Source: a virus
Lineage: Duplodnaviria; Caudoviricetes
IMG/VR virus record: IMGVR_UViG_3300020345_000381
Coordinates: 6,474-70,473 of that record
Strand: one strand, 5' to 3'
Length of the DNA stretch: 64,000 bases
Shown: positions 29,504-43,562 of the stretch, in pieces
How positions within the stretch are numbered: the first letter of the stretch is position 1
Layout: each line of letters starts with the position of its first letter
Notes under the pieces: model-generated
Database searches by the model: none
What the model saw: the letters and a program-made list of their open reading frames with translations, nothing else
Told to the model about the DNA's origin: nothing
Program-made: the position numbers and the translations under genes

Positions 29504-30955
29504 TTAAATACCTTTAAATAATACAAAGTTATTAGCAGCTTGAGTTACAAGACATCTTTCTGAAAGGAAGTTGACTTCCATTGCATCAAGATTAGAAGTG
29601 TAAGCACCTCCAGCTGATCCAGTTAACCAAGACTTCATACGTCTGTCTTCTGTTTGAGAAGCTCTATATCTAACGTGTAAGAATGGTCGTCTGATATTTG
29701 TACCTAAAATTTGATCGTAAACAGTAGATGTACCAGCTGGTATTAATACTCCTTCTATTGATTGAGTTCCAGCGATAGCACCTCTTGTAGACGCATCATT
29801 TAAATATTTCCAGTCAGTCTTATAGAAATCATAAGATCCTCTTCTGAAACCGCTAAATCCAAGATTTAAAGCCATTTCTTCTGAGTTTTCAAATAATCCA
29901 TAAGCAGTACCACCAGAACTTCCTGCAGATATTAGAGATAACATGTTATCAAATTCTAACGCAGTTGATCTTTGTAAGAATAACATATTTTCTTCAATAG
30001 CTCCTTGAGTATCTAGGTTTTTAAGTATTTCATCAAAGTCATCTATACCAGATGCTCCAGCGAATCCAACTTCTACATTACCTCTTGATGAGATAGCTGC
30101 AAAAAGACCTTCAGTACCTTTAAAACCTGAAGCAGCAGCGTTATTTCCAGCAGCCGCAACAGCGATCTCACCTTCAACACATACCATTTCTAGGTAATCT
30201 TCAAATCTTAATCTTGTTTCAGATTCAGCTTTTAAATACCATAAATATCCAGTAGTTCCATCTTCCGTTGCAACTTCAACCCAACCAATTTGAGCCATAT
30301 CAGAACCATTTATTGTATAAACGTTTCTGATAATGATTGGTGAATTGTTATATTGCTGGAAAGCAGGAGTAATAGTTATTTGTGGTTGTACAGTATTATT
30401 TAAAGCTAAAGCTCCAGCACCCGCATTAGATGTTGATGCACCTTTAATAAATTCTGAACCATAAACAAATATTTTTACTGAAGTACCTAGACCGCTTAGA
30501 TCTGTACTTAAATAAGGAGCAACAGTTATAACACCAGTACCGGTATTAGAAGCTGTTACAACACATTTTGCTTCATTACCATTATCGTCTAAAACTACAA
30601 TAGTTTGACCTGGAGATATTACATTTCTTGTAACACCAGGAGCTGTTGCAGCAGGTACAGTAACAGTAGATGGGTTAGCTTGATCGTTAACACAGTTGTC
30701 ATATGCAATATGTAATCTATTTTGCTCTGACCAAACAACTTGATCTGAAGTCAGAGGCATTTCAGCTCCTACCATACGTAAAAAACCTGATAGAGTTCTG
30801 TTTCCATATCTCTCTACTTCTTGTTCATATATTTCTGGTAGATATTGCTGAGCAAAATCATTATTACCATCTGTAAAAGATAGGTAATTACTGGCTAATA
30901 GCTGCTGATTAGGAGCAGGAACTATTGAGCCAAATTGTGGAGTTAATACACCCAT
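29504..30955 (-). CDS. major capsid protein
   Basis: 483 aa between scaffold and adaptor genes; FAQQYLPEIYEQEVERYGNR motif as in Bacteroidetes podophage capsids; followed by a terminator. Confidence 0.8.
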   Translation of the reverse strand: MGVLTPQFGSIVPAPNQQLLASNYLSFTDGNNDFAQQYLPEIYEQEVERYGNRTLSGFLRMVGAEMPLTSDQVVWSEQNRLHIAYDNCVNDQANPSTVTVPAATAPGVTRNVISPGQTIVVLDDNGNEAKCVVTASNTGTGVITVAPYLSTDLSGLGTSVKIFVYGSEFIKGASTSNAGAGALALNNTVQPQITITPAFQQYNNSPIIIRNVYTINGSDMAQIGWVEVATEDGTTGYLWYLKAESETRLRFEDYLEMVCVEGEIAVAAAGNNAAASGFKGTEGLFAAISSRGNVEVGFAGASGIDDFDEILKNLDTQGAIEENMLFLQRSTALEFDNMLSLISAGSSGGTAYGLFENSEEMALNLGFSGFRRGSYDFYKTDWKYLNDASTRGAIAGTQSIEGVLIPAGTSTVYDQILGTNIRRPFLHVRYRASQTEDRRMKSWLTGSAGGAYTSNLDAMEVNFLSERCLVTQAANNFVLFKGI

Positions 30956-30974
30956 AATTGATAATTATTTATTT

Positions 30975-32264
30975 TTAATTAAACGTTTTCTTTTTTATTC
31001 TTAATTTTGAAGAATCAAGCCCACTAATTGCTTTTACTTTTAATCCACCTACAAATACTTCTCCTGAAGCTGTTTTTCTAGGTTCAGTACTAATGTTTTT
31101 AGATTTTGCTAATTGTTCTTTAATTGCATCGGTTTTACCTTGCTCATAAAAATGATTAGCAATAGTATCAACATTTTGTGCTGCATATAAAGCTTTATGA
31201 TAACCTTGATGATTTTCTACTTCTCCGTTTTTATTCAGAAACTTCTGAATAAAATTAGATATATCACTTTGATTATCTGCAACGTTTGAAGGATCTTTTA
31301 CTCCGTATCTAAATTTTTTATCTCCTAATTTAAAATCAAAACCTTTGAAATCTTCGTTAAAAAGCGTTTTAGTTTTAGATACAAATCTTTCATGTTTAGC
31401 TTCATTTAATGCTTGATCTTCAGTATAGCGATTGAAAAAGTCCATTGCTTTTTGTTGTTCTTGTGTTACACCGGGTCTCAACTTGATTTCGGCATAATAT
31501 TTACTTTTAAGATCTTCTAAAAAGTTTTTGGCTTTAGCTATCTCTTCTTTGTAAGCGAGTTTTTTCTTTTTTATATCTCGCTCCTCATCCACCTCTTCAT
31601 CATAGCTAAAAGAATCTTCAATAATAAAGCTTCTTTCTTCCATGTTTAAATGAGGCTTAGCTTGTTTGTAATATTCATGTAATAATGCTTCATCATTTAC
31701 TTTACTATAATCCGCATTTAATCTAGCATAGTCTTCAACAGTTCCACCTGTTTCTTCCATGAATTTTACTAAATTTTCTATATTTTCAGGAAGTTTTTGT
31801 GTTTCTCCTTCCTGTTGTATTTCTTCTTGTTTTTGTGAGGCAGTGGTAGTTTCAGTGCTTCTATCCATTCCTGTCTCGTTAGTATTATCTTCTTCATCAG
31901 TAATTTCTTGTAAAGGTGAATCCGATTCTATTTTTTCTTCTTGAGTTTCAGAAACTTTGCTGGACTTGAGTACCGATTCGTCCACCTTAGTGCTATCTCC
32001 GGTTTGTTCGCCCACAGCCACTTCCTTTGTTTCTCCGACTTGAATGGCATCTTTTTCTTCTTTTTTAGGTTTACTTAAATCTACTTTAACTAAATCAGGA
32101 ACTAATTTTTCATCACCTAATTGTTTAGGTTTAGTTACTTTTTTTATTTTAAAACTACCTTCTTCTTGAGGAGGTTTTTCTTTTGTAGATTCAACTGTTT
32201 CTTTAGCTTCTTCTACTTTTTCTAATACTTTTTCTTTTATTGTTTCTTCTACTTTTTTTGACAT
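30975..32264 (-). CDS. putative scaffolding protein
   Basis: Acidic, low-complexity, helical; between portal and capsid. Confidence 0.65.
   Translation of the reverse strand: MSKKVEETIKEKVLEKVEEAKETVESTKEKPPQEEGSFKIKKVTKPKQLGDEKLVPDLVKVDLSKPKKEEKDAIQVGETKEVAVGEQTGDSTKVDESVLKSSKVSETQEEKIESDSPLQEITDEEDNTNETGMDRSTETTTASQKQEEIQQEGETQKLPENIENLVKFMEETGGTVEDYARLNADYSKVNDEALLHEYYKQAKPHLNMEERSFIIEDSFSYDEEVDEERDIKKKKLAYKEEIAKAKNFLEDLKSKYYAEIKLRPGVTQEQQKAMDFFNRYTEDQALNEAKHERFVSKTKTLFNEDFKGFDFKLGDKKFRYGVKDPSNVADNQSDISNFIQKFLNKNGEVENHQGYHKALYAAQNVDTIANHFYEQGKTDAIKEQLAKSKNISTEPRKTASGEVFVGGLKVKAISGLDSSKLRIKKKTFN
31778..31897 (-). CDS. overprinted +1-frame small basic protein B in the scaffold gene
   Basis: MKKIILTRQEWIEALKLPLPHKNKKKYNRKEKHKNFLKI; same frame as A, starts 30 nt after A's stop. 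Confidence 0.6.
   Translation of the reverse strand: MKKIILTRQEWIEALKLPLPHKNKKKYNRKEKHKNFLKI
31928..32050 (-). CDS. overprinted +1-frame small basic protein A in the scaffold gene
   Basis: MPFKSEKQRKWLWANKPEIALRWTNRYSSPAKFLKLKKKK; host GC3 jumps exactly at its ATG. Confidence 0.7.
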   Translation of the reverse strand: MPFKSEKQRKWLWANKPEIALRWTNRYSSPAKFLKLKKKK

Positions 32265-32292: not shown

Positions 32293-34704
32293 TTAAGATG
32301 GACTAAATTGTTCTAATCCAAAACCATCTAAGTTATCATTTCCTGCAGATTCAAAATCTTTAGGTAGTGAATCATTTTGACGTTGAGCTATTAGTTCACT
32401 TTGTTGTGTACCTTGTATTTTAACTCTTTTGTCTTTTCTATCTTCTATTTCAGCTTCCTTAGCTTTTTGAGCTTGCCCTTGTATTTGAGCTAATTGCATA
32501 TCATAATTAAATTCTTCTGCCATTAACTGTTTTTTAAGCAGCGCTTCTTGTTCCATTTTCTTTATTTCAAATTGAGATTTAGCTTGTTCAATTTGTATTT
32601 CTGTTTCAGCCAAAGCTTGTTGTTTTTGTACTTCTGCTAATGCTGCTTTTTCGGCGGCTTCAGCATTAGCCTGTGCTTGAACTTCTATATTTTCTAATTG
32701 TTGTGCTCTAGCTATTTCTTGTTTTTTCTTTTGTCTAGCTTTTAAACTTTGATTAGCAAGTTTTATATTTTTTATTTCTCTTAAATCAATAGCATCTTCT
32801 AAACCTATATTTTGTTGCTGAAGAGACATTTGAATATTTTGTTCTAACAATGCTTTTTCTTCTTCTTCTGGTTCTAATTCTAAAAATATTCCAAAGTCAT
32901 GCATACTTAATTTTTCAACTTCTATTAAAGTATTGGTATTAAAAGTATTTATACTTGTTAATAAACTTTGTTTAGTTAAAGGAAATTGTAGCATATCTGC
33001 TGCTCTTAAACTAATATTTTCGCATACTCTAACAGTTAAATACATTAAAGATTGTAACACGTGTTTTGTAGCTGTATTAGAGTTTGCAGCTGCTAATTTT
33101 TGTAAACCTACTAAAGAATCTTTTGTCGGAGCACTTCCATCTCTTGCTTCATTTAATCCAGTAACATCTCTTATCATTTGTAAATAATATTGATAAGTTT
33201 GTATCATAGATTGAATTTTTCCCATTCCATTAGAAGTTTGTAATTCTTGTACTGGAATTTTACCTCTATTTAATTCTCCATCTTGAGTTAGTGATCTACC
33301 AACTATACTACCAGTTTGAAAATACATATTTAATGCTTCTGCTGGATTATAATTAGTTCCATTGCCTAAATCAACTTCCGCTAATCCATCTACATCTAAA
33401 TAAACCCCATCTGGTACCATTTTAGATAATACTTGTTGTAATTTTAAATGAGTTAATTGAATCATATCAGCAAAACCTATACTTTTACTTACTAAAGATT
33501 CTATTCTTCCTTGATACATTCTAGGAGCACTTATAACATAATTCATGTTAACTTTAGTAGTGTCACTATATGGTCTAGTCATATTTTCACTTAATTCCCA
33601 TTTAAGTAAATTACCTCCTAAACCTAATACTTTTGCTCCGCAATATAATACTTCTATTGCTCTTGAAACTCTTTCAAAATTATCATTTGGTGGCGGATTA
33701 AATGTATCTGGTTTTTCTAATATTTTTTCTAATCCTTGTTCAGTTTGTTTTATTTTAAAAACTTGATCTTGATATGTTTTATATTCAAAATATAAAACTT
33801 GAACTTGATCTTGTGTTTCTTGTCCCCACCAAGTATTTTCTACATAAGAATTTCTTCCAGGATATTTTTGTATTTCTTCTAAATCACTATCAGTTAAATT
33901 AGGAAATTGTCTTTTAAGTTCTGATAATGACATATTTTTAACTTCTCCTACGTAGTATATATCTTCAAAATTAGGATCATCTGTATAAGAATAAACTATA
34001 TTAGCAGGATTAACATAATCAACGGTAATTCCTTCTGATAAATTAAAATCAGTTTTTACACACCCAATACCTAAAACCGTTAAATCATAAGCTAGACGCT
34101 TTTTAACTTCGTTATATTTATTATATGATAAAATATTATCTAATAATTCTTCCTCTGCAATTTCAATACTTTGTTTATAAGTTAATTGCATGTATAAATC
34201 TAATTCATTAGGATCTTCTGGTAAATTCTCAGGATCGGAAGAAGAATAAAAATTTTGACCAGTTAAAGATGTTAATTGATCTATTTCGGCTTTATTTTGA
34301 ATATCTCTTAACGCATTTTCAGCATAAACTGTTCTTTCTTTATTAGCAAAAGGATCTTGTGCGTAAGATTTTATTTCATATCCTTTATCTGTCATACCGT
34401 TTACAACAATATCAACAAATTTAGATAAAATAGGTACTGGTTTCCAATCTAAGTTAAGATAAGATAAATCACCATTAATAGCTAATTCATTTTTATATTT
34501 TTGAACTGGTTGTTCTCCTCTTGCATATAATCTTAATCTATTAAAATTTTGAAAATTACTGATAAAACGGTTTTGACCGCTGGAGTTTCTAAACCACTCA
34601 TGCTCAATTGCTTGCGCTACTTGTAGTCCATACTCTCTAGATTTTTTCTCTTCTTCAGGTACCACCTGATCAGGAAAAGCACTATTGTAGTTGATTTTAA
34701 TCAT
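32293..34704 (-). CDS. portal protein
   Basis: 803 aa directly after terL; SYLNLDWKPVPILSKFVDIVVNG motif. Confidence 0.85.
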   Translation of the reverse strand: MIKINYNSAFPDQVVPEEEKKSREYGLQVAQAIEHEWFRNSSGQNRFISNFQNFNRLRLYARGEQPVQKYKNELAINGDLSYLNLDWKPVPILSKFVDIVVNGMTDKGYEIKSYAQDPFANKERTVYAENALRDIQNKAEIDQLTSLTGQNFYSSSDPENLPEDPNELDLYMQLTYKQSIEIAEEELLDNILSYNKYNEVKKRLAYDLTVLGIGCVKTDFNLSEGITVDYVNPANIVYSYTDDPNFEDIYYVGEVKNMSLSELKRQFPNLTDSDLEEIQKYPGRNSYVENTWWGQETQDQVQVLYFEYKTYQDQVFKIKQTEQGLEKILEKPDTFNPPPNDNFERVSRAIEVLYCGAKVLGLGGNLLKWELSENMTRPYSDTTKVNMNYVISAPRMYQGRIESLVSKSIGFADMIQLTHLKLQQVLSKMVPDGVYLDVDGLAEVDLGNGTNYNPAEALNMYFQTGSIVGRSLTQDGELNRGKIPVQELQTSNGMGKIQSMIQTYQYYLQMIRDVTGLNEARDGSAPTKDSLVGLQKLAAANSNTATKHVLQSLMYLTVRVCENISLRAADMLQFPLTKQSLLTSINTFNTNTLIEVEKLSMHDFGIFLELEPEEEEKALLEQNIQMSLQQQNIGLEDAIDLREIKNIKLANQSLKARQKKKQEIARAQQLENIEVQAQANAEAAEKAALAEVQKQQALAETEIQIEQAKSQFEIKKMEQEALLKKQLMAEEFNYDMQLAQIQGQAQKAKEAEIEDRKDKRVKIQGTQQSELIAQRQNDSLPKDFESAGNDNLDGFGLEQFSPS

Positions 34705-36930
34705 CTAATTTAGAATTTTTGAATTTACTCCTTTATTATCATATTTTTTAAAACCTAAAGGCACCGATGTCAGTTTGCGTTCTGCTGTTGGCCTATATCT
34801 ATTTTTATTACATGCCATAATTGCTAAGCCTGAACTTATTGAGGCATCATGAAGTGTTCTGTTGTTTATATTAAATCTTGCCCAATCTTCTAAAGTGCGT
34901 TGAAAATATAAATCTCCATAATTTTCACCATTATATCCTATAAAATTTTCTATATAATCTTCTATAGCAGCTGCATGAGCTTGTTTGATATCTTCACTAG
35001 AGTTAGGTATACCACCTATTTCTCTTTCTGTTACTGATAATTTATTATAAATTTTATCTGGTCTATTCATAGAATATCCTCTATAACCTCTTCGTTTTAA
35101 ATAATATAATAATCTAGGTTTGTTATTTTCTGCAAGAAGTGGCATTCCATAAAATACTAATGCCATTAAAACATCTTCAAAAAAGATTTCAGCAGTTTGA
35201 GGTCTTGCTATATATTCTAAAAAAAAGCTATTAGGAGGAACATCCTCCATTGTAAATTTAGTTAAACCATGCAAAGAACCTTTTGAACCTCTACCATCTA
35301 CAGTTCCTGAAATATCATACGGATCACAACCAAAAGCACCACAATCAGTATTGGCAGGATATCGTATTCCATTTTTTATATTATACCTATTTTGTAAATT
35401 ATTAGGAGGAATCCACGAAATAAAAAATCTTCCATTATTATTAGGTATAAAAATAACTCTAGTATCTTTAATCCCATTTTCCCATTGAAAATTACCTTGA
35501 CTTATAATGTTTGTATTACGTAAATCTTCATTATAATCTATTTGTTCATATATTTTTGTAAGATTAAAAAGAGATTGTTTTGCTTCATCTCTAAAAGCGT
35601 GTTTTTCAGTTCGTGGGAATTGTCTATAAAATTCATTTAAACTGTCTTGATCTTCTTTTAAACCTTCAACTTCGTTTTCCCAGTGAGAGATAACCCCGAT
35701 ATTAATTTGTGATCCGTCAATCCCTTTAACGGCTTTTTTTGGAGTTTCGAATACAGGTATGCCATAAGTATTGATGTATCCTTCGTAGTTCCATTCCATA
35801 GGTATGAACAAACTATATAATCCTGTATTAGTCTGTCCATTGCGGTTTCTTTTTGTAACATCTGAAGCGTCATATAATTTTTTAAAGTTATCACCACCTT
35901 TGTCTAATGCATTTGATGTAGATCCCATCATACATTTTCCAACTATTCTACTCCCTAATCTTAACGTCGTTTTCGTGACTCTCCAGTTGTTGAGGATATT
36001 ATCCGGCCTCTCCCATTTCCCTGACTCGTCGTGCGCAAGGAGTTGTAACTTCTCCCCATCGTAGGAGTTGTCGCCGGTATTCTTCCAATCGATGGTTGTA
36101 TCCAACCCCTGGAGGTCTTCGATCTTACTATTCTGGTCCAATTTTTTTCTGGTAAGCTTCGAGGCAGGGACTCTATACGCGAGTTCCGTCTTGGGGCGGT
36201 CCATACCGTCCTGGATTGGTTTGAAAAAGAAGGGATAGTTAACTGATATTGGTACCACTTTGTCAGTAAACATCTTTTTCGCATCAGCTCCAGTTTTAGA
36301 TAATATTCCATATCGTGAATCTGAGGATATAGTGGCCTGGTGTACCAGTTCTGAGGATGCCATGAAAGAAAATCCCGATCGACGGTTCTTAAGGTAGCAC
36401 ATTCCATAACACCTAGTATCGGATTTACACGCTTCCCAAAAAATAAAGAAAAGTCTGTTGGACTCTCGAAACTCTGGTTTCCCAACATCAATCTTGGTCC
36501 ACTGCAAGTACATATAATGAGAACCAGTAATATAAGTGGGAATGCCTTTGTTATAAAACCAAAAGCCTTCTTCACGTCTTTTAAATTCTTCATCAATATA
36601 ATCATACCATTTATCTTTAAAATCAAGAGAAGTATTATTCCAATCAAAAACAGTTTTAAGTCTATCTAAAACTTTAGGATAATCAAATACTTCCCAATAT
36701 TGTTCTTCTTTTTTATTTCCTTTTTTATATACTTTTTCTTCTAGCGGTAAAGCAATTTTGAGACCTTGGATTTCATATATTTCCCCAATTTGGCCAGTTT
36801 TGCTGATAACCACGATATCATTTTCTTGATCGTACCCATATTTCCATTTTTTATATCTATTATTTCTTTTTATTATTTTTGGTTTAATATGATCAGATAA
36901 AATTTTATATAGAGTTTGTGTATATGTCAT
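34705..36930 (-). CDS. terL: terminase large subunit
   Basis: Walker A-like LKNRRSGFS, Walker B AHDESGK, MGST coupling motif, RuvC-like nuclease GCDPYD. Confidence 0.92.
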   Translation of the reverse strand: MTYTQTLYKILSDHIKPKIIKRNNRYKKWKYGYDQENDIVVISKTGQIGEIYEIQGLKIALPLEEKVYKKGNKKEEQYWEVFDYPKVLDRLKTVFDWNNTSLDFKDKWYDYIDEEFKRREEGFWFYNKGIPTYITGSHYMYLQWTKIDVGKPEFRESNRLFFIFWEACKSDTRCYGMCYLKNRRSGFSFMASSELVHQATISSDSRYGILSKTGADAKKMFTDKVVPISVNYPFFFKPIQDGMDRPKTELAYRVPASKLTRKKLDQNSKIEDLQGLDTTIDWKNTGDNSYDGEKLQLLAHDESGKWERPDNILNNWRVTKTTLRLGSRIVGKCMMGSTSNALDKGGDNFKKLYDASDVTKRNRNGQTNTGLYSLFIPMEWNYEGYINTYGIPVFETPKKAVKGIDGSQINIGVISHWENEVEGLKEDQDSLNEFYRQFPRTEKHAFRDEAKQSLFNLTKIYEQIDYNEDLRNTNIISQGNFQWENGIKDTRVIFIPNNNGRFFISWIPPNNLQNRYNIKNGIRYPANTDCGAFGCDPYDISGTVDGRGSKGSLHGLTKFTMEDVPPNSFFLEYIARPQTAEIFFEDVLMALVFYGMPLLAENNKPRLLYYLKRRGYRGYSMNRPDKIYNKLSVTEREIGGIPNSSEDIKQAHAAAIEDYIENFIGYNGENYGDLYFQRTLEDWARFNINNRTLHDASISSGLAIMACNKNRYRPTAERKLTSVPLGFKKYDNKGVNSKILN
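35658..35873 (-). CDS. second putative +1-frame ORF in terL (71 aa)
   Basis: Same +1 frame; C-ending synonymous codons enriched in terL over this stretch. Confidence 0.4.
   Translation of the reverse strand: MTLQMLQKETAMDRLIQDYIVCSYLWNGTTKDTSILMAYLYSKLQKKPLKGLTDHKLISGLSLTGKTKLKV
35961..36593 (-). CDS. overprinted +1-frame ORF in terL (210 aa from ATG 36593; frame open to 36647), possible lipoprotein
   Basis: 228 stop-free codons; terL GC3 about 66% at 36001-36240 versus about 15% in a downstream sample. Confidence 0.6.
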   Translation of the reverse strand: MKNLKDVKKAFGFITKAFPLILLVLIICTCSGPRLMLGNQSFESPTDFSLFFGKRVNPILGVMECATLRTVDRDFLSWHPQNWYTRPLYPQIHDMEYYLKLELMRKRCLLTKWYQYQLTIPSFSNQSRTVWTAPRRNSRIESLPRSLPEKNWTRIVRSKTSRGWIQPSIGRIPATTPTMGRSYNSLRTTSQGNGRGRIISSTTGESRKRR

Positions 36931-37199
36931 TTTGATCTACCTTCAGCAAAACCTTTAAAGTTATTACCTCGATTTTCTTTTTTAATTTCTTTTAACATAT
37001 TCTCTTCTTCTTCTATACGACTTAATATTTCAAACGCATCAAATACTGCTAATTTTTTAGTAGCAGCGGCGTTTTTTAATCTATCAGCCGAAACATCATC
37101 TTCTGAATCTACAATTTTTTCTTTTGCTACTTTAATTAATTCTTCAACTGCTTTTTGCCCAGCTTGGATTATACTCTTCTTGGTTTGTTTTGTGTTCAT
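36927..37199 (-). CDS. putative terminase small subunit
   Basis: 90-aa helical protein overlapping the terL start (ATGA). Confidence 0.45.
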   Translation of the reverse strand: MNTKQTKKSIIQAGQKAVEELIKVAKEKIVDSEDDVSADRLKNAAATKKLAVFDAFEILSRIEEEENMLKEIKKENRGNNFKGFAEGRSK

Positions 37200-37734
37200 A
37201 TTTAATTACAATATCATTTGATTCCATACAATATAAAAGTTCATTATCAATAATAAATTCAAATTCTCTAAGTGGTTTAAACCCTATTATATCTCCTGGA
37301 TTTATTTTAAGCACTTCTAATGAACTATTACCATATTTTAATATCCCTTTATTCTTTATTATTTTTTCATCTTCTAATAAAGGTTTTACAAAACAATAGT
37401 TTTCGTTAGGTATCCACTTATTTTTTTGATAATACATGTATACTTGAGAGGGAACTGCAAAATATAAATCATCTTTAAAATATTTAGTACTATTCACTGA
37501 TTTACCTTTCATGTTATAGTATCTTCTAAATAAATTATGATGTACTATAACTTTATCTCCTTTTTTAATTTTAGTATTATATATAAGCGGAACACTAACT
37601 ACTTCTGCTTCTCTATTTACAAATTTGTGACTAGATATAGTAGAATTAACAATTAATTCACAACCATCAATATTAATTTTGTTTTTATATCTTTCCCCAA
37701 TAGGTTTAATAATAAATTGATATAAACTTTTCAT
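37144..37734 (-). CDS. tandem GroES-like co-chaperonin
   Basis: Two GroES-like repeats: FIIKP...AEVVSVP...IKKGDKVIV and CFVKP...GILKY...INPGDIIGF...IDNELLYCMESNDI. Confidence 0.6.
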   Translation of the reverse strand: MKSLYQFIIKPIGERYKNKINIDGCELIVNSTISSHKFVNREAEVVSVPLIYNTKIKKGDKVIVHHNLFRRYYNMKGKSVNSTKYFKDDLYFAVPSQVYMYYQKNKWIPNENYCFVKPLLEDEKIIKNKGILKYGNSSLEVLKINPGDIIGFKPLREFEFIIDNELLYCMESNDIVIKYEHKTNQEEYNPSWAKSS

Positions 37735-39021: not shown

Positions 39022-39441
39022 TTATTTATGTTTATTGTTTCCGAATACTTTTTCAACTCCACGAGAACCGAAATAACCTCCGATAACAATGGATAGAAGT
39101 CCAGTAATAGATTCTAAAGGATAGTGTAAATACCATCCTATAACGTAACTAATTGTTAAAAATATTAATGTTAATGGACGAACATTAGCAGCAAGCCACG
39201 CTCCGGAACGAGCATCTGCAACCCATCGCCTTGTTGTTCCATCAATTTCAGCTCTTTCGATTGTTAGTTTTTGTAAAGCAATTTCTTTATCTGCTTCAGA
39301 TAAATCTTTATTACCTGTTATTAATTCTGAAATAACGTTACCTGGTAATATTGCATCACCAACAATACCTAAGATACTAGGTGCTTTTTGAATAAGAAAT
39401 TTTCCTACACCAGTATCTTTAAAGGCCTTTTTTTTACTCAT
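39022..39441 (-). CDS. 3TM-type holin
   Basis: WLAANVRPLTL...GGYFGSRGVEK motif resembling the GTA 3TM holin family. Confidence 0.7.
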   Translation of the reverse strand: MSKKKAFKDTGVGKFLIQKAPSILGIVGDAILPGNVISELITGNKDLSEADKEIALQKLTIERAEIDGTTRRWVADARSGAWLAANVRPLTLIFLTISYVIGWYLHYPLESITGLLSIVIGGYFGSRGVEKVFGNNKHK

Positions 39442-39794
39442 TATCCACCAATATTTCTATTTTTCTTTTTTTCCATAGCTTTCTTTTCTGCGGTAGTGTG
39501 TTTTATTCCCGTTAGTGCTTTACCTACAGTGGTATGAGCTGGTTTACGTCTCTGAGATAGTATATCACCTCCAGTGCCTAAACCTCCTCTAATTTCCCAA
39601 GTAAGATTATCTGCAATTGCTTGTTTAGCTTTACCCCATAGACTATGATTATTATGTAATGGACTATTTGATCCTTTACTTACTATTGAATGCTTGCTCA
39701 TCCAAGAACCACTTGCGTGATCTGGTATTGGATTAATCCCAAGTAAGTTTTTTCTTTCTTGAGCAGCAGATTCGTGTTTTTTACCTTTTCCCAT
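39441..39794 (-). CDS. basic hypothetical protein
   Basis: ORF track. Confidence 0.6.
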   Translation of the reverse strand: MGKGKKHESAAQERKNLLGINPIPDHASGSWMSKHSIVSKGSNSPLHNNHSLWGKAKQAIADNLTWEIRGGLGTGGDILSQRRKPAHTTVGKALTGIKHTTAEKKAMEKKKNRNIGG

Positions 39795-39804
39795 TTTATT
39801 TATT

Positions 39805-40131
39805 TTATGAATGATTATGTGCTTTTTGTTCCCAAGGTAAAGATTTACTTCCTTCTTTCATATTAGCACGAGAATGAATTTTCCATTTATCATTTACTGA
39901 TTTACGGCTATATACGTTTTCATCATCGTAATATAATAATCCAGATTGAATATCATTAATATGAATTTGTTCATGATTAATAACTTCTTGTCTTTGCTTA
40001 GGATCTTTTATGTTTTTATTTATTAATATATTTCCATTTTTATCAGCTTTACCTAATACACCATCTTCCATATCAATCTCATGAACTGGAGCAGTTGCTA
40101 CGTAAGGAGGGTTATTAAGTTTAAAAGCCAT
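39805..40131 (-). CDS. small zincin-like (HExxH) protein
   Basis: VINHEQIH motif; C-terminal LPWEQKA. Confidence 0.55.
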   Translation of the reverse strand: MAFKLNNPPYVATAPVHEIDMEDGVLGKADKNGNILINKNIKDPKQRQEVINHEQIHINDIQSGLLYYDDENVYSRKSVNDKWKIHSRANMKEGSKSLPWEQKAHNHS

Positions 40132-40292
40132 TATTTTCGTGTTGAATATGGAAACATTTTATTTAGTGCATCTTTTCTTTGTTGACATCCACAAGGAATA
40201 TTAAGACCTTCGGAGACAGAATCTACGATGGTCTTAATACCTGTTTTAGTGGTAAACTTTTCAATAGAATCGCCTAATCCTCGTGATTTCAT
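40131..40292 (-). CDS. small hypothetical protein with CGC motif (53 aa)
   Basis: MKSRGLGDSIEKFTTKTGIKTIVDSVSEGLNIPCGCQQRKDALNKMFPYSTRK; TAATG overlap. Confidence 0.7.
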   Translation of the reverse strand: MKSRGLGDSIEKFTTKTGIKTIVDSVSEGLNIPCGCQQRKDALNKMFPYSTRK

Positions 40293-40302
40293 CAACTAAT
40301 TA

Positions 40303-40698
40303 TTATGCCCAAGTAGCACCACTAAAATACATTTGTACTGGAGTAGCTGCTTGATCTTTCGGTAAACTTACACTAGATTTAACTCCACCTGGGTTAGCTG
40401 TCATTGCTTTTACAACTGCGTCATAAATTGGATTTGCGCTACCATCGTTAAGTGTTGGATTGGTAGTTGCAACCATATCAGCATGTACTGCAAAAGTAAC
40501 TGTTTTAGGGTTAGTAGCATCAGGTGTTCCTATAGCTGCTTGTTTAAAGCTTACAACTAATGTTTTAGCGTTTTGTCCATTAGCGCCAGTTGCTGCAATC
40601 TTTACAATGTCTTCCACATTAAGTAAGACATCATAGCTTGGGCCGAACGGTTGACCCGCGTTTATATTTACACAATGAAAATTTATAAATTTTGCCAT
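40303..40698 (-). CDS. hypothetical protein (possibly structural)
   Basis: ORF track; long A/C-rich leader. Confidence 0.65.
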   Translation of the reverse strand: MAKFINFHCVNINAGQPFGPSYDVLLNVEDIVKIAATGANGQNAKTLVVSFKQAAIGTPDATNPKTVTFAVHADMVATTNPTLNDGSANPIYDAVVKAMTANPGGVKSSVSLPKDQAATPVQMYFSGATWA

Positions 40699-40766
40699 TT
40701 TTGTTTTTGTTTTTGTTATTGTTATTGGTTTTGTTTTGGTTAGATTTATACAGTTCTATTCTGTTT

Positions 40767-41420
40767 TTATGTTTTAATTACTAAAGGTTTTCTAAATGAA
40801 CCTCCAGCTTCTTTATATGCTATAACGTTTTCTCTCATAGCAGCAACTGATTTTCTCCAATCTCTATGAGCAGTATAAGCCTTTTTCATATCGTTAAACT
40901 CCTTTTCACTTAATGTATTATTGCTAAGTTCTTGACCTGGTATTTTAACCTTCATAAATTCTTTATTTTTTATATCTTTGTAAGTTAAATTACCAAAATC
41001 TTCCCCTGTAATTTTCTTACCTTGATCCATAATAAAACCACTCCATTCTTTATTTCTTACATCAGTAGGATCAAACATATTAGTACCGGCAACAGCATCT
41101 TTGTAAGTTTGTTCAAAAGGTTTGTACGCATGATCTCCCATACCTCCTGTATCTTTAATATTTATAGGTCTATCTCCATCTTCATTCCAGCCAAATCTTG
41201 AATCTAAACCAGCTCTTGGATCTTCTTTTGGTTCTTTTTCTTTTTCGTAATCAGGACCTACAAGCTTAGTAATATGAGCTTGATTTTCTTTTCCGGGTTG
41301 ATGAGGATGTTCTTTTGATGTTTGATGATATAATGGTGAATCCGTATATAATAAAGCTCCATCATGGGTTTGACCTTGATAGGTTCCTAATCCTTTTTTG
41401 TAAAATGGAGTTTTACTCAT
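40767..41420 (-). CDS. hypothetical protein
   Basis: ORF track. Confidence 0.6.
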   Translation of the reverse strand: MSKTPFYKKGLGTYQGQTHDGALLYTDSPLYHQTSKEHPHQPGKENQAHITKLVGPDYEKEKEPKEDPRAGLDSRFGWNEDGDRPINIKDTGGMGDHAYKPFEQTYKDAVAGTNMFDPTDVRNKEWSGFIMDQGKKITGEDFGNLTYKDIKNKEFMKVKIPGQELSNNTLSEKEFNDMKKAYTAHRDWRKSVAAMRENVIAYKEAGGSFRKPLVIKT

Positions 41421-41421
41421 T

Positions 41422-41748
41422 TTAATCTCTAATTTTATATTTTGTTCCGTCTGGATTAGTTCCTACTTGTTTTTTCTTAAGATCTTTTCTCCAATCACCG
41501 TTTTCGTGTAAAGGCGAATGATGTTTTTTATCATATTTCATATCTCCGGCTAATTTAGATATATGTTTTTCATCAGCCGTCATATCTATATCACTATGTC
41601 CATGTTTGTCATCCCAAAGAATATCTCTTTTCAGATAGTCTATATGCGCTGCATCATCTCTTTCGGCGGCATGAACGTTATGTTTTGTTACCGGTGTACG
41701 AGAATGTCTAGCATTACCAGAATATTCTCCAAAATGTCCTTTTTCCAT
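41422..41748 (-). CDS. His/Asp/Lys-rich hypothetical protein
   Basis: ORF track. Confidence 0.6.
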   Translation of the reverse strand: MEKGHFGEYSGNARHSRTPVTKHNVHAAERDDAAHIDYLKRDILWDDKHGHSDIDMTADEKHISKLAGDMKYDKKHHSPLHENGDWRKDLKKKQVGTNPDGTKYKIRD

Positions 41749-41771
41749 AGTTATTTCTTTATTATTATTTA

Positions 41772-41918
41772 TTACTTCTTTTCTTTAAGTTTTACCCATT
41801 TAGATACTGTATATCCAATAGTTACGAGCAAAAGTATAATTTTAAGCCATACTTCTATATCCGTCATAGAAATAGCTAATGCTAACGCATTTATCAATAG
41901 TAACTTTACGTCTGGCAT
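41772..41918 (-). CDS. 48-aa 2-TM holin-like membrane protein
   Basis: MPDVKLLLINALALAISMTDIEVWLKIILLLVTIGYTVSKWVKLKEKK: two hydrophobic helices and a basic tail. Confidence 0.6.
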   Translation of the reverse strand: MPDVKLLLINALALAISMTDIEVWLKIILLLVTIGYTVSKWVKLKEKK

Positions 41919-41923
41919 TATTA

Positions 41924-42145
41924 TTAAAATTTACCTTGGGCAATTGCTGTAATTGGGTATTTTACTTGCATATCAACTTTAGAATTAGGATATTTAGATA
42001 CTTGCATACCTTTAATCCCAGAACTAGATCCTACTTGATGAATCCTTCCAACTTGATTTAATGGACCATCCCATATATGAGATTCTCCTACAATACCTAT
42101 TTTTTTATTTCTACTTGCTTTATTATATGCTTTATCGTCGTGCAT
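41924..42145 (-). CDS. hypothetical protein
   Basis: ORF track. Confidence 0.6.
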   Translation of the reverse strand: MHDDKAYNKASRNKKIGIVGESHIWDGPLNQVGRIHQVGSSSGIKGMQVSKYPNSKVDMQVKYPITAIAQGKF

Positions 42146-42164
42146 GATTATTTTTGTTTAAATG

Positions 42165-42233
42165 TTATAATGCATTTTCTAGTATAATTATAAATAAAAA
42201 TATAACTATACCCGCTAATAAATAGCCTGTCAT
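42165..42233 (-). CDS. 22-aa single-TM peptide
   Basis: MTGYLLAGIVIFLFIIILENAL; TAATG overlap with the upstream gene. Confidence 0.4.
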   Translation of the reverse strand: MTGYLLAGIVIFLFIIILENAL

Positions 42234-42472
42234 TAGTCTTTTTTTAATTGTGGATACTTTCGGTAAACACAAGCTTTTATTTTATCAGGATTTTTAGCAT
42301 TGTGAGCTAATTTAATAGCTGATTTTGCTCTTTTTAATGTATTTACAGGATATGTACCTTTAGGTCCACAAAAATCTGATTTAGCTACATTAGGATATTT
42401 ACCAGCATTTGACATTCCTGGTTCTTCCCTTATTTCTGATAATGTTTTTAAAAACGGTGAATTACTTTTCAT
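42233..42472 (-). CDS. basic hypothetical protein
   Basis: Start moved to MKSNSPFLK (42472) to remove the overlap. Confidence 0.6.
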   Translation of the reverse strand: MKSNSPFLKTLSEIREEPGMSNAGKYPNVAKSDFCGPKGTYPVNTLKRAKSAIKLAHNAKNPDKIKACVYRKYPQLKKD

Positions 42473-42485
42473 AATTTTATTTTTT

Positions 42486-43562
42486 TTAAAATCTATCCAT
42501 ACCTCCAAAAAAACTATTTGAAGAGGAACTTGTATTTTGGTTTTTATTTTTCTTTTTAAAACGATCTTTAATAAAATCTATTGCACCATAATTTTTATCA
42601 TTTCTCATTTTTTGATAATCTTCTACTCTTTGTTTTTTATTTACATTTCTATCTGCTATTCTTTCAGCTCTAGCCGATTGACGCATTTTTGTTCTTTCTA
42701 ATTTACCTTCTAATCTAGCTTTTTGTGCTGGATTTGCATCTCCTACTTTCTCAATTCTATTTTCTAATCTAGTAGTTTTAGGAACTGTCCAATCATCATA
42801 TGTTTGTGCAGATGTAGATTCAAGATTTGAAGCAGGATGAACATCACTACCACTTGCATCATCTCTTGCAGGAAAAGAATCAGCTATACTAGTAGGTTGT
42901 GGTTGTGAGATTATAGTTTCACCATCTGTTTCAGGTTTAGTATAAGTTCTGGCTGTTGGACTCCATTCTTTTTTAAGAGGAGTTCCTTTTTTAGCTAAAG
43001 CACTAACAACACCAGCACCTACACCTTGTACCACTTCATCAATAGCTTTACCTATTTTGTTATCATGTTTTTTAATTACGGTTTTGGGTTGAGTATAAGT
43101 ACTTTTTAAAGGACTTTTCATTGCAAAAGCACTTCCTTTATTTAAACCACCCATTAAAGTATTATAATCTCTATCAGCTAAAGTACCTGTTTCAACTGGA
43201 GGAGCAGCAATACTACTTCCTACTCCTGTAGGCCCTTGTGTTAAAGCAGATAGTCCACTCGCTTGAGCAACTTGTTCTTTTTGTATATCTATAGGATTAA
43301 CTTCAGTGTTTTCAACACTTGATAATGCTTCTTGTTGCATAGCTGTTGCATTATCAATGGCATCATTTCCACTTTGTTGTTGTAATGCTAATTTACCAAT
43401 AGCACCATGAATTCCTCCTTGTTGAGAGAAATTCTGAAGATTGTTTAAAGAATTGGGATCATTTTGGTTAGAATTTCTTTTTCTTTTTCTTCTTCCAAAA
43501 AGTCCAGATGCAAAACCTGCAATTCCTCCTCGTTTTTTATGATTTAATGGACTGTTACTCAT
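42486..43562 (-). CDS. low-complexity, probably disordered virion/internal protein
   Basis: Q/N/S-rich with basic termini. Confidence 0.5.
   Translation of the reverse strand: MSNSPLNHKKRGGIAGFASGLFGRRKRKRNSNQNDPNSLNNLQNFSQQGGIHGAIGKLALQQQSGNDAIDNATAMQQEALSSVENTEVNPIDIQKEQVAQASGLSALTQGPTGVGSSIAAPPVETGTLADRDYNTLMGGLNKGSAFAMKSPLKSTYTQPKTVIKKHDNKIGKAIDEVVQGVGAGVVSALAKKGTPLKKEWSPTARTYTKPETDGETIISQPQPTSIADSFPARDDASGSDVHPASNLESTSAQTYDDWTVPKTTRLENRIEKVGDANPAQKARLEGKLERTKMRQSARAERIADRNVNKKQRVEDYQKMRNDKNYGAIDFIKDRFKKKNKNQNTSSSSNSFFGGMDRF

What the first reader, a model, noticed from the sequence alone, without database searches (positions are those of the whole stretch)
31928..32050. 40-aa basic Trp-rich protein nested in the scaffold gene
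Seen: the +1 frame reads MPFKSEKQRKWLWANKPEIALRWTNRYSSPAKFLKLKKKK*. By manual count none of the ~70 scaffold codons between the scaffold ATG and this ATG ends in G/C, while 16 of the ~42 overlapped codons do. The shift begins at GAT-GCC, which contains the nested ATG. The MPFKSxKQRxxxxANxPEIAxRW pattern looks to me like a small protein found as a free-standing ORF in other phages (recollection, unverified). The acidic, disordered scaffold N-terminus can absorb the constraint. A very basic peptide co-made with the scaffold could bind or condense DNA or be a core protein.
Basis: partly seen in the sequence, partly recalled or inferred. Interest (0 to 1): 0.8.

Follow-up and report, generated by a model that had tools for sequence, protein, structure and literature searches.

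The report
Hidden small gene inside scaffold gene
A 40-codon gene for a very basic mini-protein, from a large uncharacterised phage family, is read in a second frame inside the head-scaffold-position gene of an uncultured marine phage, and selection has kept it there in dozens of related phages.

Summary
Window 31928-32050, on the minus strand, is a 40-codon ORF. It lies in the +1 frame of the 429-codon gene between the portal and the major capsid protein.

It is a real gene.
- A +1 ORF starting Met-Pro-Phe sits at the same site in 72 of 80 related scaffold genes (50-95% identical), as 61 distinct peptides.
- Four-fold-degenerate scaffold sites are frozen there.
- In the overlap the nested frame is under purifying selection (dN/dS 0.44). 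The scaffold frame is not (1.22). Four control blocks show the reverse.
- The ATG has a true-start-like, A-rich, unstructured context.

Free-standing homologues exist in unrelated phages. A profile finds 4,095 protein clusters, and the module nearly always sits at the extreme N-terminus, either alone or fused to varied C-terminal parts. The only library match is PHROG 1375, of unknown function.

Because the small-gene family is far more widespread than the scaffold segment over it, the scaffold's disordered linker is the younger frame.

Function is untested. My best guess is a helical-hairpin docking module with a basic tail that acts in head assembly. Earlier notes of this scan describe other nested genes in this same genome.

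The parts
31928..32050 (-). Nested gene: 40 codons plus TAG, in the +1 frame of the scaffold-position gene. It encodes a basic protein (pI 10.9, net +11) with 3 Trp. The predicted shape is helix 6-15, a Pro17 kink, helix 17-27, then a Lys-rich tail.
   Evidence: conserved in 72/80 related loci; +1-frame dN/dS 0.44
32048..32050 (-). Start codon ATG of the nested gene. It is made from the last two bases of scaffold codon 72 (GAT) and the first base of codon 73 (GCC). It is invariant in 68/68 distinct related sequences.
32051..32075 (-). A-rich, G-poor, unstructured leader just upstream of the nested ATG (SD-less, Bacteroidota-type start context). The nested frame is closed by a stop a few codons upstream (8 codons in the window; 1-9 in the 38 relatives measured).
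   Evidence: The start-context score is 6.5, against a mean of 6.24 for 34 true starts, and only 0.5% of 1162 internal ATGs score as high. The -30..+20 window folds at 0.0 kcal/mol. Unpaired probability is 0.71, against a background of 0.51 +/- 0.13. Upstream stops.
30975..32264 (-). Host gene: a 429-codon ORF in the scaffold position, between a P22-like portal and the major capsid protein. Residues 25-155 are predicted disordered. Residues 160-390 are helical and are the part conserved outside the clade.
31778..31897 (-). Second +1-frame nested ORF (39 codons) in the same disordered linker. It is a separate finding of this scan and is listed only because it shares the architecture.
32293..34704 (-). 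Portal gene (context); it matches Pfam P22_portal above the curated cut-off.
29504..30955 (-). Major capsid protein gene (context); 37-48% identical to structural proteins of Flavobacterium and Cellulophaga phages.

Best explanation
Window 31928-32050(-) is a functional, independently translated gene lying wholly inside the scaffold-position gene, one base out of frame. Shown: it is under purifying selection as a protein and belongs to a very large phage family defined by an N-terminal module (Met1-Pro2-Phe3, Ser5, Gln8, Pro17, Ala20, Trp23). In this stretch the scaffold frame merely stays open. Inferred: ribosomes start at the internal ATG, because it lies in an A-rich, unstructured, SD-less context typical of phages of Bacteroidota. 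The mini-protein would then be made from the same late mRNA as the head proteins. Inferred: because the small-gene family is far more widespread than the clade-specific scaffold linker, a pre-existing small gene was engulfed by, or recombined into, the growing disordered N-terminal extension of the scaffold gene. This is the reverse of classical overprinting. Function is a guess (about 0.3): the conserved two-helix hairpin is a docking module for a conserved partner in head assembly or packaging, and the variable Lys-rich tail binds nucleic acid or the acidic scaffold.
For: (1) Conservation. A +1 ORF starting Met-Pro-Phe sits at the homologous GAT/AAT-GCx site in 72 of 80 related loci from many metagenomes, giving 61 distinct peptides of 37-52 aa, all net +8 to +17. 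There is one copy per locus and none free-standing in the flanks. It is the only copy in the complete 70.5-kb genome.
(2) Frozen synonymous sites. Scaffold Ala73 is GCC in 69/69 sequences, Thr79 is ACA in 63/63, and Val94 is GTG in 46/57. The 33 other conserved four-fold codons mostly have third-position entropy near 1.1-1.6 bits, and only one of them is frozen (Mann-Whitney p = 0.0036). Nested codons Pro2 and Gln8 vary only at their own third base.
(3) Selection flips. In the overlap the +1-frame dN/dS is 0.44 (bootstrap CI 0.31-0.59) and the scaffold-frame value is 1.22 (0.70-2.08). In four control blocks of the same genes the +1 frame gives 0.79-0.90 and the scaffold frame 0.30-0.41.
(4) Homology. 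phmmer gives E = 3.9e-8 against 5.8 billion proteins. The profile finds 4,095 clusters at E <= 1e-3 and 396 at E <= 1e-10. Free-standing genes sit tightly between neighbours in unrelated phages: 023Pt_psg01, the Streptomyces phage FlowerPower group, and a terminase-adjacent contig. ORFs in C75C1 and P-RSP2 are unannotated.
(5) Start site. See the leader part above. 127 of the 150 best family members begin exactly at Met-Pro-Phe.
(6) Fold. AF2 with 37 sequences gives two helices; mean pLDDT is 77, and 83-90 over residues 1-20.
(7) Age. Scaffold homologues outside the clade align only from about residue 147 and carry no nested ORF.
Against: There is no direct evidence of translation: no Ribo-seq, no proteome and no cultured member of this clade. 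The isolates with virion MS/MS (Callevirus, Elemovirus) lack the nested ORF. Eight of the 80 relatives lack a recognisable copy, so it is dispensable or replaceable. Sequence pairs in the dN/dS test are not phylogenetically independent, and NS sites are near saturation. For function, the genomic contexts of free-standing members are inconsistent. Some lie near the portal or terminase, one lies next to a holin in Streptomyces phages, and one lies in the early region of a T7-like cyanophage. There is no Pfam family, no solved relative and no paper.
Confidence: 0.85

Rival explanations
1. The +1 frame is reached by ribosomal +1 frameshifting (or slippage in the A-run) from the scaffold frame. The product would be the scaffold N-terminus fused to the basic module, not a free 40-aa protein.
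For: The ATG is preceded by an A-rich run (AAAAAAGAAGAAAAAG). Two database proteins, P0012 (111 aa) and P0013 (81 aa), are exactly such fusions.
Against: P0012 and P0013 are singletons on contigs of about 1.4 kb. P0012 is explained by a one-base deletion (CCT to CT), so they look like indel variants or assembly errors. The +1 frame is closed by a stop 1-9 codons upstream of the ATG wherever this was measured (the window and 38 relatives). The ATG is invariant in 68/68 sequences. 127/150 family members start at Met-Pro-Phe. No hungry codon or 0-frame stop marks a +1 shift site.
Confidence: 0.06
2. The ORF is an untranslated relic, a chance open frame in purine-rich DNA, or its conservation reflects an RNA or DNA element rather than a protein.
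For: Purine-rich sequence has few stops in any frame. Eight relatives lack a recognisable copy.
Against: Variation is concentrated at the nested frame's own synonymous positions. Family-invariant residues are kept across five divergent subtypes. The stop position and the basic tail are kept. Protein-level homology to free-standing genes in GC-rich Streptomyces phages cannot come from a nucleotide element. The region is predicted to be unstructured.
Confidence: 0.03
3. Function rival: the peptide is a packaged core protein that binds and condenses the genome inside the head.
For: It is very basic (net +11, Lys-rich tail). It would be co-made with head proteins. Free-standing copies lie next to portal or terminase genes in two unrelated phages.
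Against: The conserved part is the aromatic two-helix hairpin, not the charge. The same module heads proteins with unrelated, non-basic C-terminal parts: a P-loop domain, DUF5661 plus a glycine zipper, DUF6321, and long Gly/Gln-rich proteins. That fits a docking tag better than a condenser. Other contexts are not head modules.
Confidence: 0.2
4. Function rival: the module acts on the host or on gene expression (takeover, counter-defence, or translational control of the scaffold mRNA) and its place in the scaffold gene is only a matter of timing or chance capture.
For: Contexts vary: the early region of cyanophage P-RSP2 and next to the holin in the FlowerPower group. Peptide subtypes are swapped between otherwise near-identical scaffold genes, as expected for genes tracking a variable partner.
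Against: There is no match to PADLOC-type or known regulator families, though only Pfam and PHROGs were scanned. There is no direct evidence.
Confidence: 0.3

Closest known systems
Lambda Rz1 embedded in Rz (and T7 18.7 in 18.5)
   Same: A complete small gene lies inside a larger phage gene in the +1 frame and has its own start. Both frames are kept.
   Different: Rz1 and Rz are two lysis subunits that bind each other, and Rz1 is a lipoprotein. Here the host gene is a head-module gene, the nested product is a soluble basic hairpin, and no functional link to the host gene is shown.
Nested scaffold genes read in the SAME frame (lambda Nu3 within C; P2 gpO-type protease-scaffold genes)
   Same: Two products come from one head-assembly gene by internal initiation.
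   Different: Those share the reading frame and therefore the sequence. Here the frames differ, so the proteins are unrelated (basic against acidic).
Classical overprinted genes (phiX174 E in D, K in A/C)
   Same: Dual coding leaves visible distortion of codon usage and frozen synonymous sites in the host gene.
   Different: In overprinting the nested gene is the young, lineage-restricted one. Here the nested gene belongs to a family of over 4,000 clusters found in unrelated phages, and the host frame over it is the young, unconstrained one.
PHROG 1375 (function unknown)
   Same: 20 of 37 family members tested match it (best E = 7.9e-6). The window peptide matches weakly (E = 0.0096, residues 3-26).
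   Different: It is an unannotated cluster, so the match names the family but not a function.
N-terminal targeting tags and basic helix-loop-helix coat binders (T4 capsid-targeting sequence; encapsulin cargo peptides; P22 scaffold C-terminal coat-binding domain). From my own knowledge; an analogy only.
   Same: A short conserved terminal module hung on varied cargo. A small basic two-helix hairpin encoded in a head module.
   Different: No sequence or structural match was found or could be tested.

Membership tests
Met-Pro-Phe N-terminal module family (PHROG 1375 and its metagenomic relatives) | Significant sequence or profile similarity to free-standing members | tested here: met
   phmmer E = 3.9e-8. 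The family HMM scores the window ORF at E = 9e-20. phrog_1375 matches at E = 0.0096 for the window peptide and 7.9e-6 for relatives.
Met-Pro-Phe N-terminal module family (PHROG 1375 and its metagenomic relatives) | Family-invariant residues Met1, Pro2, Phe3, Ser5, Gln8, Pro17, Ala20, Trp23 | tested here: met
   All eight are present in the window peptide.
Met-Pro-Phe N-terminal module family (PHROG 1375 and its metagenomic relatives) | The module sits at the extreme N-terminus of the product | tested here: met
   The ORF begins with the module and a stop closes the frame 8 codons upstream. 127/150 best family members start there.
Embedded out-of-frame gene pair (Rz/Rz1-type architecture) | The whole small ORF lies inside a larger gene in another frame, and both frames are kept open in relatives | tested here: met
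   The scaffold-frame ORF is continuous in 79/80 loci, and the +1 ORF is present in 72/80.
Embedded out-of-frame gene pair (Rz/Rz1-type architecture) | The nested frame is under purifying selection as a protein | tested here: met
   dN/dS 0.44 (CI 0.31-0.59), against 0.79-0.90 in controls. Frozen four-fold sites.
Embedded out-of-frame gene pair (Rz/Rz1-type architecture) | Independent translation of the nested gene is demonstrated | not testable with these tools
   Only indirect support: the start-context score and the lack of structure.
Embedded out-of-frame gene pair (Rz/Rz1-type architecture) | The two products act together | not tested
De novo overprinted gene | The nested frame is younger and more taxonomically restricted than the host frame | tested here: not met
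   The nested family has 4,095 clusters and occurs in unrelated phages. The host segment is clade-specific and unconstrained.
Pfam DUF3008 (PF11450) | A match to the Pfam model | tested here: not met
   No hit at E <= 10 for the window peptide, nor at E <= 1 for the 37 members. The only lead is a 0.83 feature-similarity score from the protein atlas.
Programmed-frameshift product | A conserved shift site with an open upstream +1 frame and no need for its own start codon | tested here: not met
   Stops lie 1-9 codons upstream, and the ATG is invariant in 68/68 sequences.
P22-type scaffolding protein (for the host gene) | Position between the portal and coat genes in a P22-like head module | tested here: met
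   The order is terminase, portal (PF16510), this gene, MCP.
P22-type scaffolding protein (for the host gene) | Sequence or fold similarity to a known scaffold; absence from mature virions | tested here: inconclusive
   No Pfam or PHROG scaffold hit. Foldseek against PDB gave nothing at E <= 0.001. The phi40:1 homologue is annotated as virion structural from MS/MS.

The most novel reading that the evidence does not exclude
The Met-Pro-Phe hairpin is a widespread, so far unrecognised, N-terminal docking tag of tailed phages. It would deliver itself or fused cargo (kinase-like, zincin-like or disordered proteins) to a conserved head-assembly partner such as the inner face of the HK97-fold shell or the portal, analogous to the T4 capsid-targeting sequence or encapsulin cargo peptides. 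The 40-aa nested form would be the minimal version. The scaffold gene of this marine clade would then have grown its disordered linker over that pre-existing gene, a documented case of 'reverse overprinting'.
Probability: 0.15. Interest if true: 0.85.

Novelty: new variant of a known kind. Interest (0 to 1): 0.65.

Why it matters
Gene callers forbid fully nested genes, so this one is invisible in every annotation of the clade. IMG/VR holds at least 574 related scaffold genes, and 72 of the 80 examined carry the ORF.

The evidence here goes beyond an open frame:
- the selection signature flips between the two frames;
- synonymous sites in the host gene are frozen;
- the product is homologous to free-standing genes.

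The case also shows an unusual evolutionary direction. An old, widespread small gene ended up under a young, unconstrained, disordered linker of a larger gene. That suggests disordered, purine-rich linkers are places where phages can stack genes. The same genome has several other nested candidates according to earlier notes of this scan.

Finally, it flags a family of more than 4,000 clusters with an invariant N-terminal motif and no known function. That makes the family a tractable target for experiments.

Tried and rejected
- **Regex too strict.** My first pattern for the motif suggested that only 38/80 relatives had the ORF. Listing all +1 ORFs and an HMM corrected this to 72/80.
- **Pfam.** No family for the peptide or for 37 members. 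The scattered weak hits (DUF1391, Choline_sulf_C, Ponericin) are chance.
- **DUF3008.** This lead came from my memory and from the atlas. HMMER does not support it.
- **PDB profile search.** The only hits are designed beta-propeller repeat proteins, reached by summing many sub-threshold repeats. They are spurious.
- **Foldseek of the scaffold model.** Nothing at E <= 0.001.
- **P0003.** It looked like a free-standing 57-aa relative on a 43-kb contig. That contig is a frameshift-riddled low-coverage assembly of a relative of this phage, so P0003 is the nested ORF with an indel.
- **P0012, P0013 and locus L054.** These fusions are one-base indel variants, each known from a single contig. I do not count them as evidence of frameshifting.
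- **Isolates.** Elemovirus, Callevirus phi40:1 and MW202828 have no nested ORF and different N-termini, so no existing virion proteome can be re-searched.
- **tblastn with a second family member.** It added no isolates.
- **Literature.** Full-text searches for the motif, the DUF names, and nested or overprinted scaffold genes found nothing relevant.
- **Genomic context of fused members.** Mostly short contigs, uninformative.

Full report
**What is there.** The window is 64 kb of a 70,473-bp IMG/VR virus record rated 100% complete. It has 31.7% G+C. Around the finding, the minus strand carries a P22-like head module:
- a 741-aa terminase-position ORF (36930..34705), with no Pfam match;
- the portal (34704..32293), which matches Pfam P22_portal above its cut-off;
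- a 429-codon ORF in the scaffold position (32264..30975);
- the major capsid protein (30955..29504).

The nearest cultured relatives are podoviruses of Flavobacterium, Cellulophaga, Tenacibaculum and Maribacter. They share 30-48% protein identity with this phage. The flagged ORF is real but lies on the minus strand, at 32050..31928. It has 40 codons and starts 214 nt into the scaffold-position ORF, in its +1 frame. Its ATG is formed by scaffold codons GAT-GCC.

It reproduces exactly. G/C-ending codons number 0/70 before the overlap, 16/42 within it and 52/316 after it. Fisher's test gives p = 1.7e-8 against the upstream part and p = 0.0026 against the downstream part.

**Is it a gene? Conservation.** A scan of IMG/VR with the scaffold protein found at least 574 relatives, of which the best 80 were kept (50-95% identity).
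- My first regex was too strict. Listing every +1 ORF and running a family HMM over all six frames gave the corrected count.
- 72 of the 80 loci carry exactly one ORF of 37-52 codons starting Met-Pro-Phe at the homologous GAT/AAT-GCx site.
- These make 61 distinct peptides, all with net charge +8 to +17.
- No free-standing copy lies in the flanks of any locus, and the nested copy is the only one in the window's complete genome.
- Five of the eight exceptions have a divergent basic ORF at the same ATG. Three have none.

**Is it a gene? Selection.**
- In an alignment anchored on the ATG (68 distinct sequences), Met1, Pro2 and Gln8 are invariant. The third bases of Pro2 and Gln8 vary freely, and these bases are first positions of scaffold codons.
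- Scaffold synonymous sites are frozen in the overlap. Ala73 is GCC in 69/69 sequences, Thr79 is ACA in 63/63, and Val94 is GTG in 46/57. The 33 other conserved four-fold codons of the gene mostly have third-position entropy near 1.1-1.6 bits, and only one of them is frozen (Mann-Whitney p = 0.0036).
- I ran an OLGenie-style count on 42 ungapped sequences. In the overlap the +1-frame dN/dS is 0.44 (codon-bootstrap CI 0.31-0.59) and the scaffold-frame dN/dS is 1.22 (0.70-2.08).
- Four non-overlapped control blocks of the same genes give the opposite pattern. The +1 frame gives 0.79-0.90, with CIs spanning 1. The scaffold frame gives 0.30-0.41.
- So in this stretch selection sees the small protein. 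The scaffold frame only has to stay open.
- Caveats: the sequence pairs are not phylogenetically independent, and the NS class is near saturation. Saturation makes 0.44 an overestimate.

**Homology.**
- tblastn finds the first 24 residues at 54-75% identity in unrelated phages.
- In marine phage 023Pt_psg01 an annotated 39-aa gene is packed between two others, downstream of the portal.
- In the Streptomyces phage FlowerPower group it is the N-terminus of a 72-aa gene next to the holin.
- On a JGI contig a 39-aa gene sits just upstream of the terminase and portal.
- Unannotated 34- and 40-codon ORFs exist in phage C75C1 and cyanophage P-RSP2.
- None of these contigs shares other proteins with the window.
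- phmmer against 5.8 billion proteins gives E = 3.9e-8.
- A 37-sequence profile (A1) searched against 1.84 billion cluster representatives finds 4,095 proteins at E <= 1e-3 and 396 at E <= 1e-10.

**Shape of the family.** Among the 150 best hits, 127 begin exactly with Met-Pro-Phe. Most of the rest look like over-extended start calls. Pro2, Ser5, Gln8, Pro17 and Ala20 are invariant, and Phe3 and Trp23 nearly so. Lengths run from 44 to 475 aa. Seventy hits are 80 aa or shorter. The others carry the module in front of unrelated C-terminal parts:
- a P-loop AAA_18-like domain;
- DUF5661 plus a glycine zipper;
- DUF6321;
- a recurrent class of Gly/Gln-rich proteins ending in an RGGLAxLW-type motif.

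The only library family is PHROG 1375, of unknown function. There is no Pfam hit. The PDB has no genuine relative, because the hits found are summed repeat artefacts. No paper was found.

**How it is probably expressed.**
- Upstream of 34 long ORFs in the window, A is frequent and G is rare. This fits the SD-less initiation of Bacteroidota hosts.
- A position matrix built from those 34 starts scores the nested ATG at 6.5. True starts average 6.24. The 1,162 internal ATGs average -6.1, and only 0.5% of them score as high.
- The -30..+20 window folds at 0.0 kcal/mol. Its mean unpaired probability is 0.71, against 0.51 +/- 0.13 along the gene.
- Wherever I measured it (the window and 38 relatives), the +1 frame is closed 1-9 codons upstream of the ATG.

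Together with the invariant ATG and the strictly N-terminal position of the module across the family, this favours internal initiation over frameshifting. The frameshift-like database proteins are explained otherwise. P0012, P0013 and P0003, and locus L054, are single-contig one-base indel variants. P0003 comes from an error-rich 5x assembly of a relative of this phage.

**Structure.**
- AF2 with the 37-sequence alignment predicts helix 6-15, a kink at Pro17, helix 17-27 and a floppy Lys-rich tail. Mean pLDDT is 77, and 83-90 over residues 1-20.
- One subtype replaces the residues at positions 12 and 20 with a pair of cysteines. This fits the two helices packing against each other.
- The host protein is predicted disordered over residues 25-155 (pLDDT 30-40) and helical from 160 to 390.
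- The overlapped scaffold segment is acidic (net -6).

**Evolution.**
- Scaffold homologues outside the clade align only from about residue 147. They have unrelated N-termini and no nested ORF.
- The small-gene family occurs across unrelated siphoviruses and podoviruses.
- The nested gene is therefore the older sequence, and the scaffold reading over it is the younger one. This is the reverse of classical overprinting.
- Two routes are possible: engulfment of a gene that lay between portal and scaffold, or recombination of a cassette into the linker.
- Cassette behaviour is visible. The window and L007 share 91% identity in the scaffold C-domain but only 20% in the peptide, which is a different subtype. 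L067 and L071 share 60% in the C-domain but 83% in the peptide. Overall r = 0.38.

**Function.** This is untested.
- Pointing to a head-associated docking module with an electrostatic tail (about 0.3):
  - the conserved aromatic hairpin and variable basic tail;
  - the strict need for a free N-terminus;
  - the variety of fused C-terminal parts;
  - the location in, or next to, head modules in three unrelated phage groups.
- A host-directed or regulatory role cannot be excluded (about 0.3), given the early-region and holin-adjacent contexts.

**Comparison and verdict.** In architecture this is closest to lambda Rz1 in Rz. It differs in the module it sits in, in the kind of product and in the evolutionary direction. 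I rate it a new variant of a known kind. Earlier notes of this scan report further nested genes in this same genome: a second one in this scaffold linker, one in the terminase gene and one in nrdB. The phenomenon may therefore be general in this phage group. I did not re-test those claims, except that I saw the second scaffold ORF conserved in about 20 relatives.

Noticed in passing
window 31778-31897 (-): A second 39-codon +1-frame ORF lies in the same disordered linker. It is conserved in about 20 of the 80 relatives, including ones whose scaffold is only 58-60% identical. Its start context is poor by my matrix (score -6.45), and the single sequence gave no Pfam hit at E <= 0.01. It is already a separate finding of this scan.
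   Followed up: partly
L007, L009, L012-L014 versus window; L067, L071: The nested peptide comes in about five subtypes, and these are shuffled relative to the rest of the scaffold gene. For example, L007 is 91% identical to the window in the C-domain but only 20% in the peptide. The overlapped segment behaves as an exchangeable cassette.
   Followed up: partly
L052, L060, L069, L070, L078, L084 (nested ORFs): One subtype carries two cysteines at the positions that are Leu/Met12 and the otherwise invariant Ala20. This is a covarying pair that would face each other across the predicted hairpin.
   Followed up: no
L038, L045, L047, L064, L074 (same ATG site); L044, L079, L083: Eight relatives lack a recognisable copy. 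Five have a divergent basic 42-43-codon ORF starting Met-Leu at the same ATG and keeping Lys4 and Gln8, which may be a decayed or fast-evolving version. Three have no ORF.
   Followed up: no
L054:2911-4096; proteins P0003, P0012, P0013: Single-contig variants exist in which a one-base indel fuses the module in frame to the scaffold C-terminal part (L054, P0003), or fuses the scaffold N-terminus to the module (P0012, P0013). They are probably assembly errors or rare mutants, but they show how easily the two frames interconvert.
   Followed up: partly
proteins P0020, P0022, P0025, P0030, P0047, P0077, P0094, P0107 and others: A recurrent class of 250-475-aa Gly/Gln/Asn-rich proteins starts with the module, repeats a similar Ser-Lys...Gln...Trp...Tyr-Gly stretch near the C-terminus, and ends in an RGGLAxLW-type motif. 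Two of them contain HExxH-like motifs. Function unknown.
   Followed up: no
window 37144-37734; L004:3310-3777; L089:5777-6097: GroES/Cpn10-like genes lie within a few kb of the module gene in three unrelated phage contexts: this window, 023Pt_psg01 and the JGI contig carrying P0009. This may be coincidence.
   Followed up: no
nested peptide tails; window 39441-43562 (-): 42 of the 60 nested peptides have a [Ser/Thr]-Pro-x-x-Leu-Leu or x-Leu-Pro motif in the tail. Several small basic proteins downstream in the window carry Ser-Pro-Leu/Phe near their N-termini.
   Followed up: partly
L087:1230-2432 (Cellulophaga phage phi40:1 gp092): The cultured-phage homologue of the 'scaffold' is annotated as a virion structural protein from MS/MS. 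The host gene may therefore not be a classical scaffold that leaves the head.
   Followed up: no
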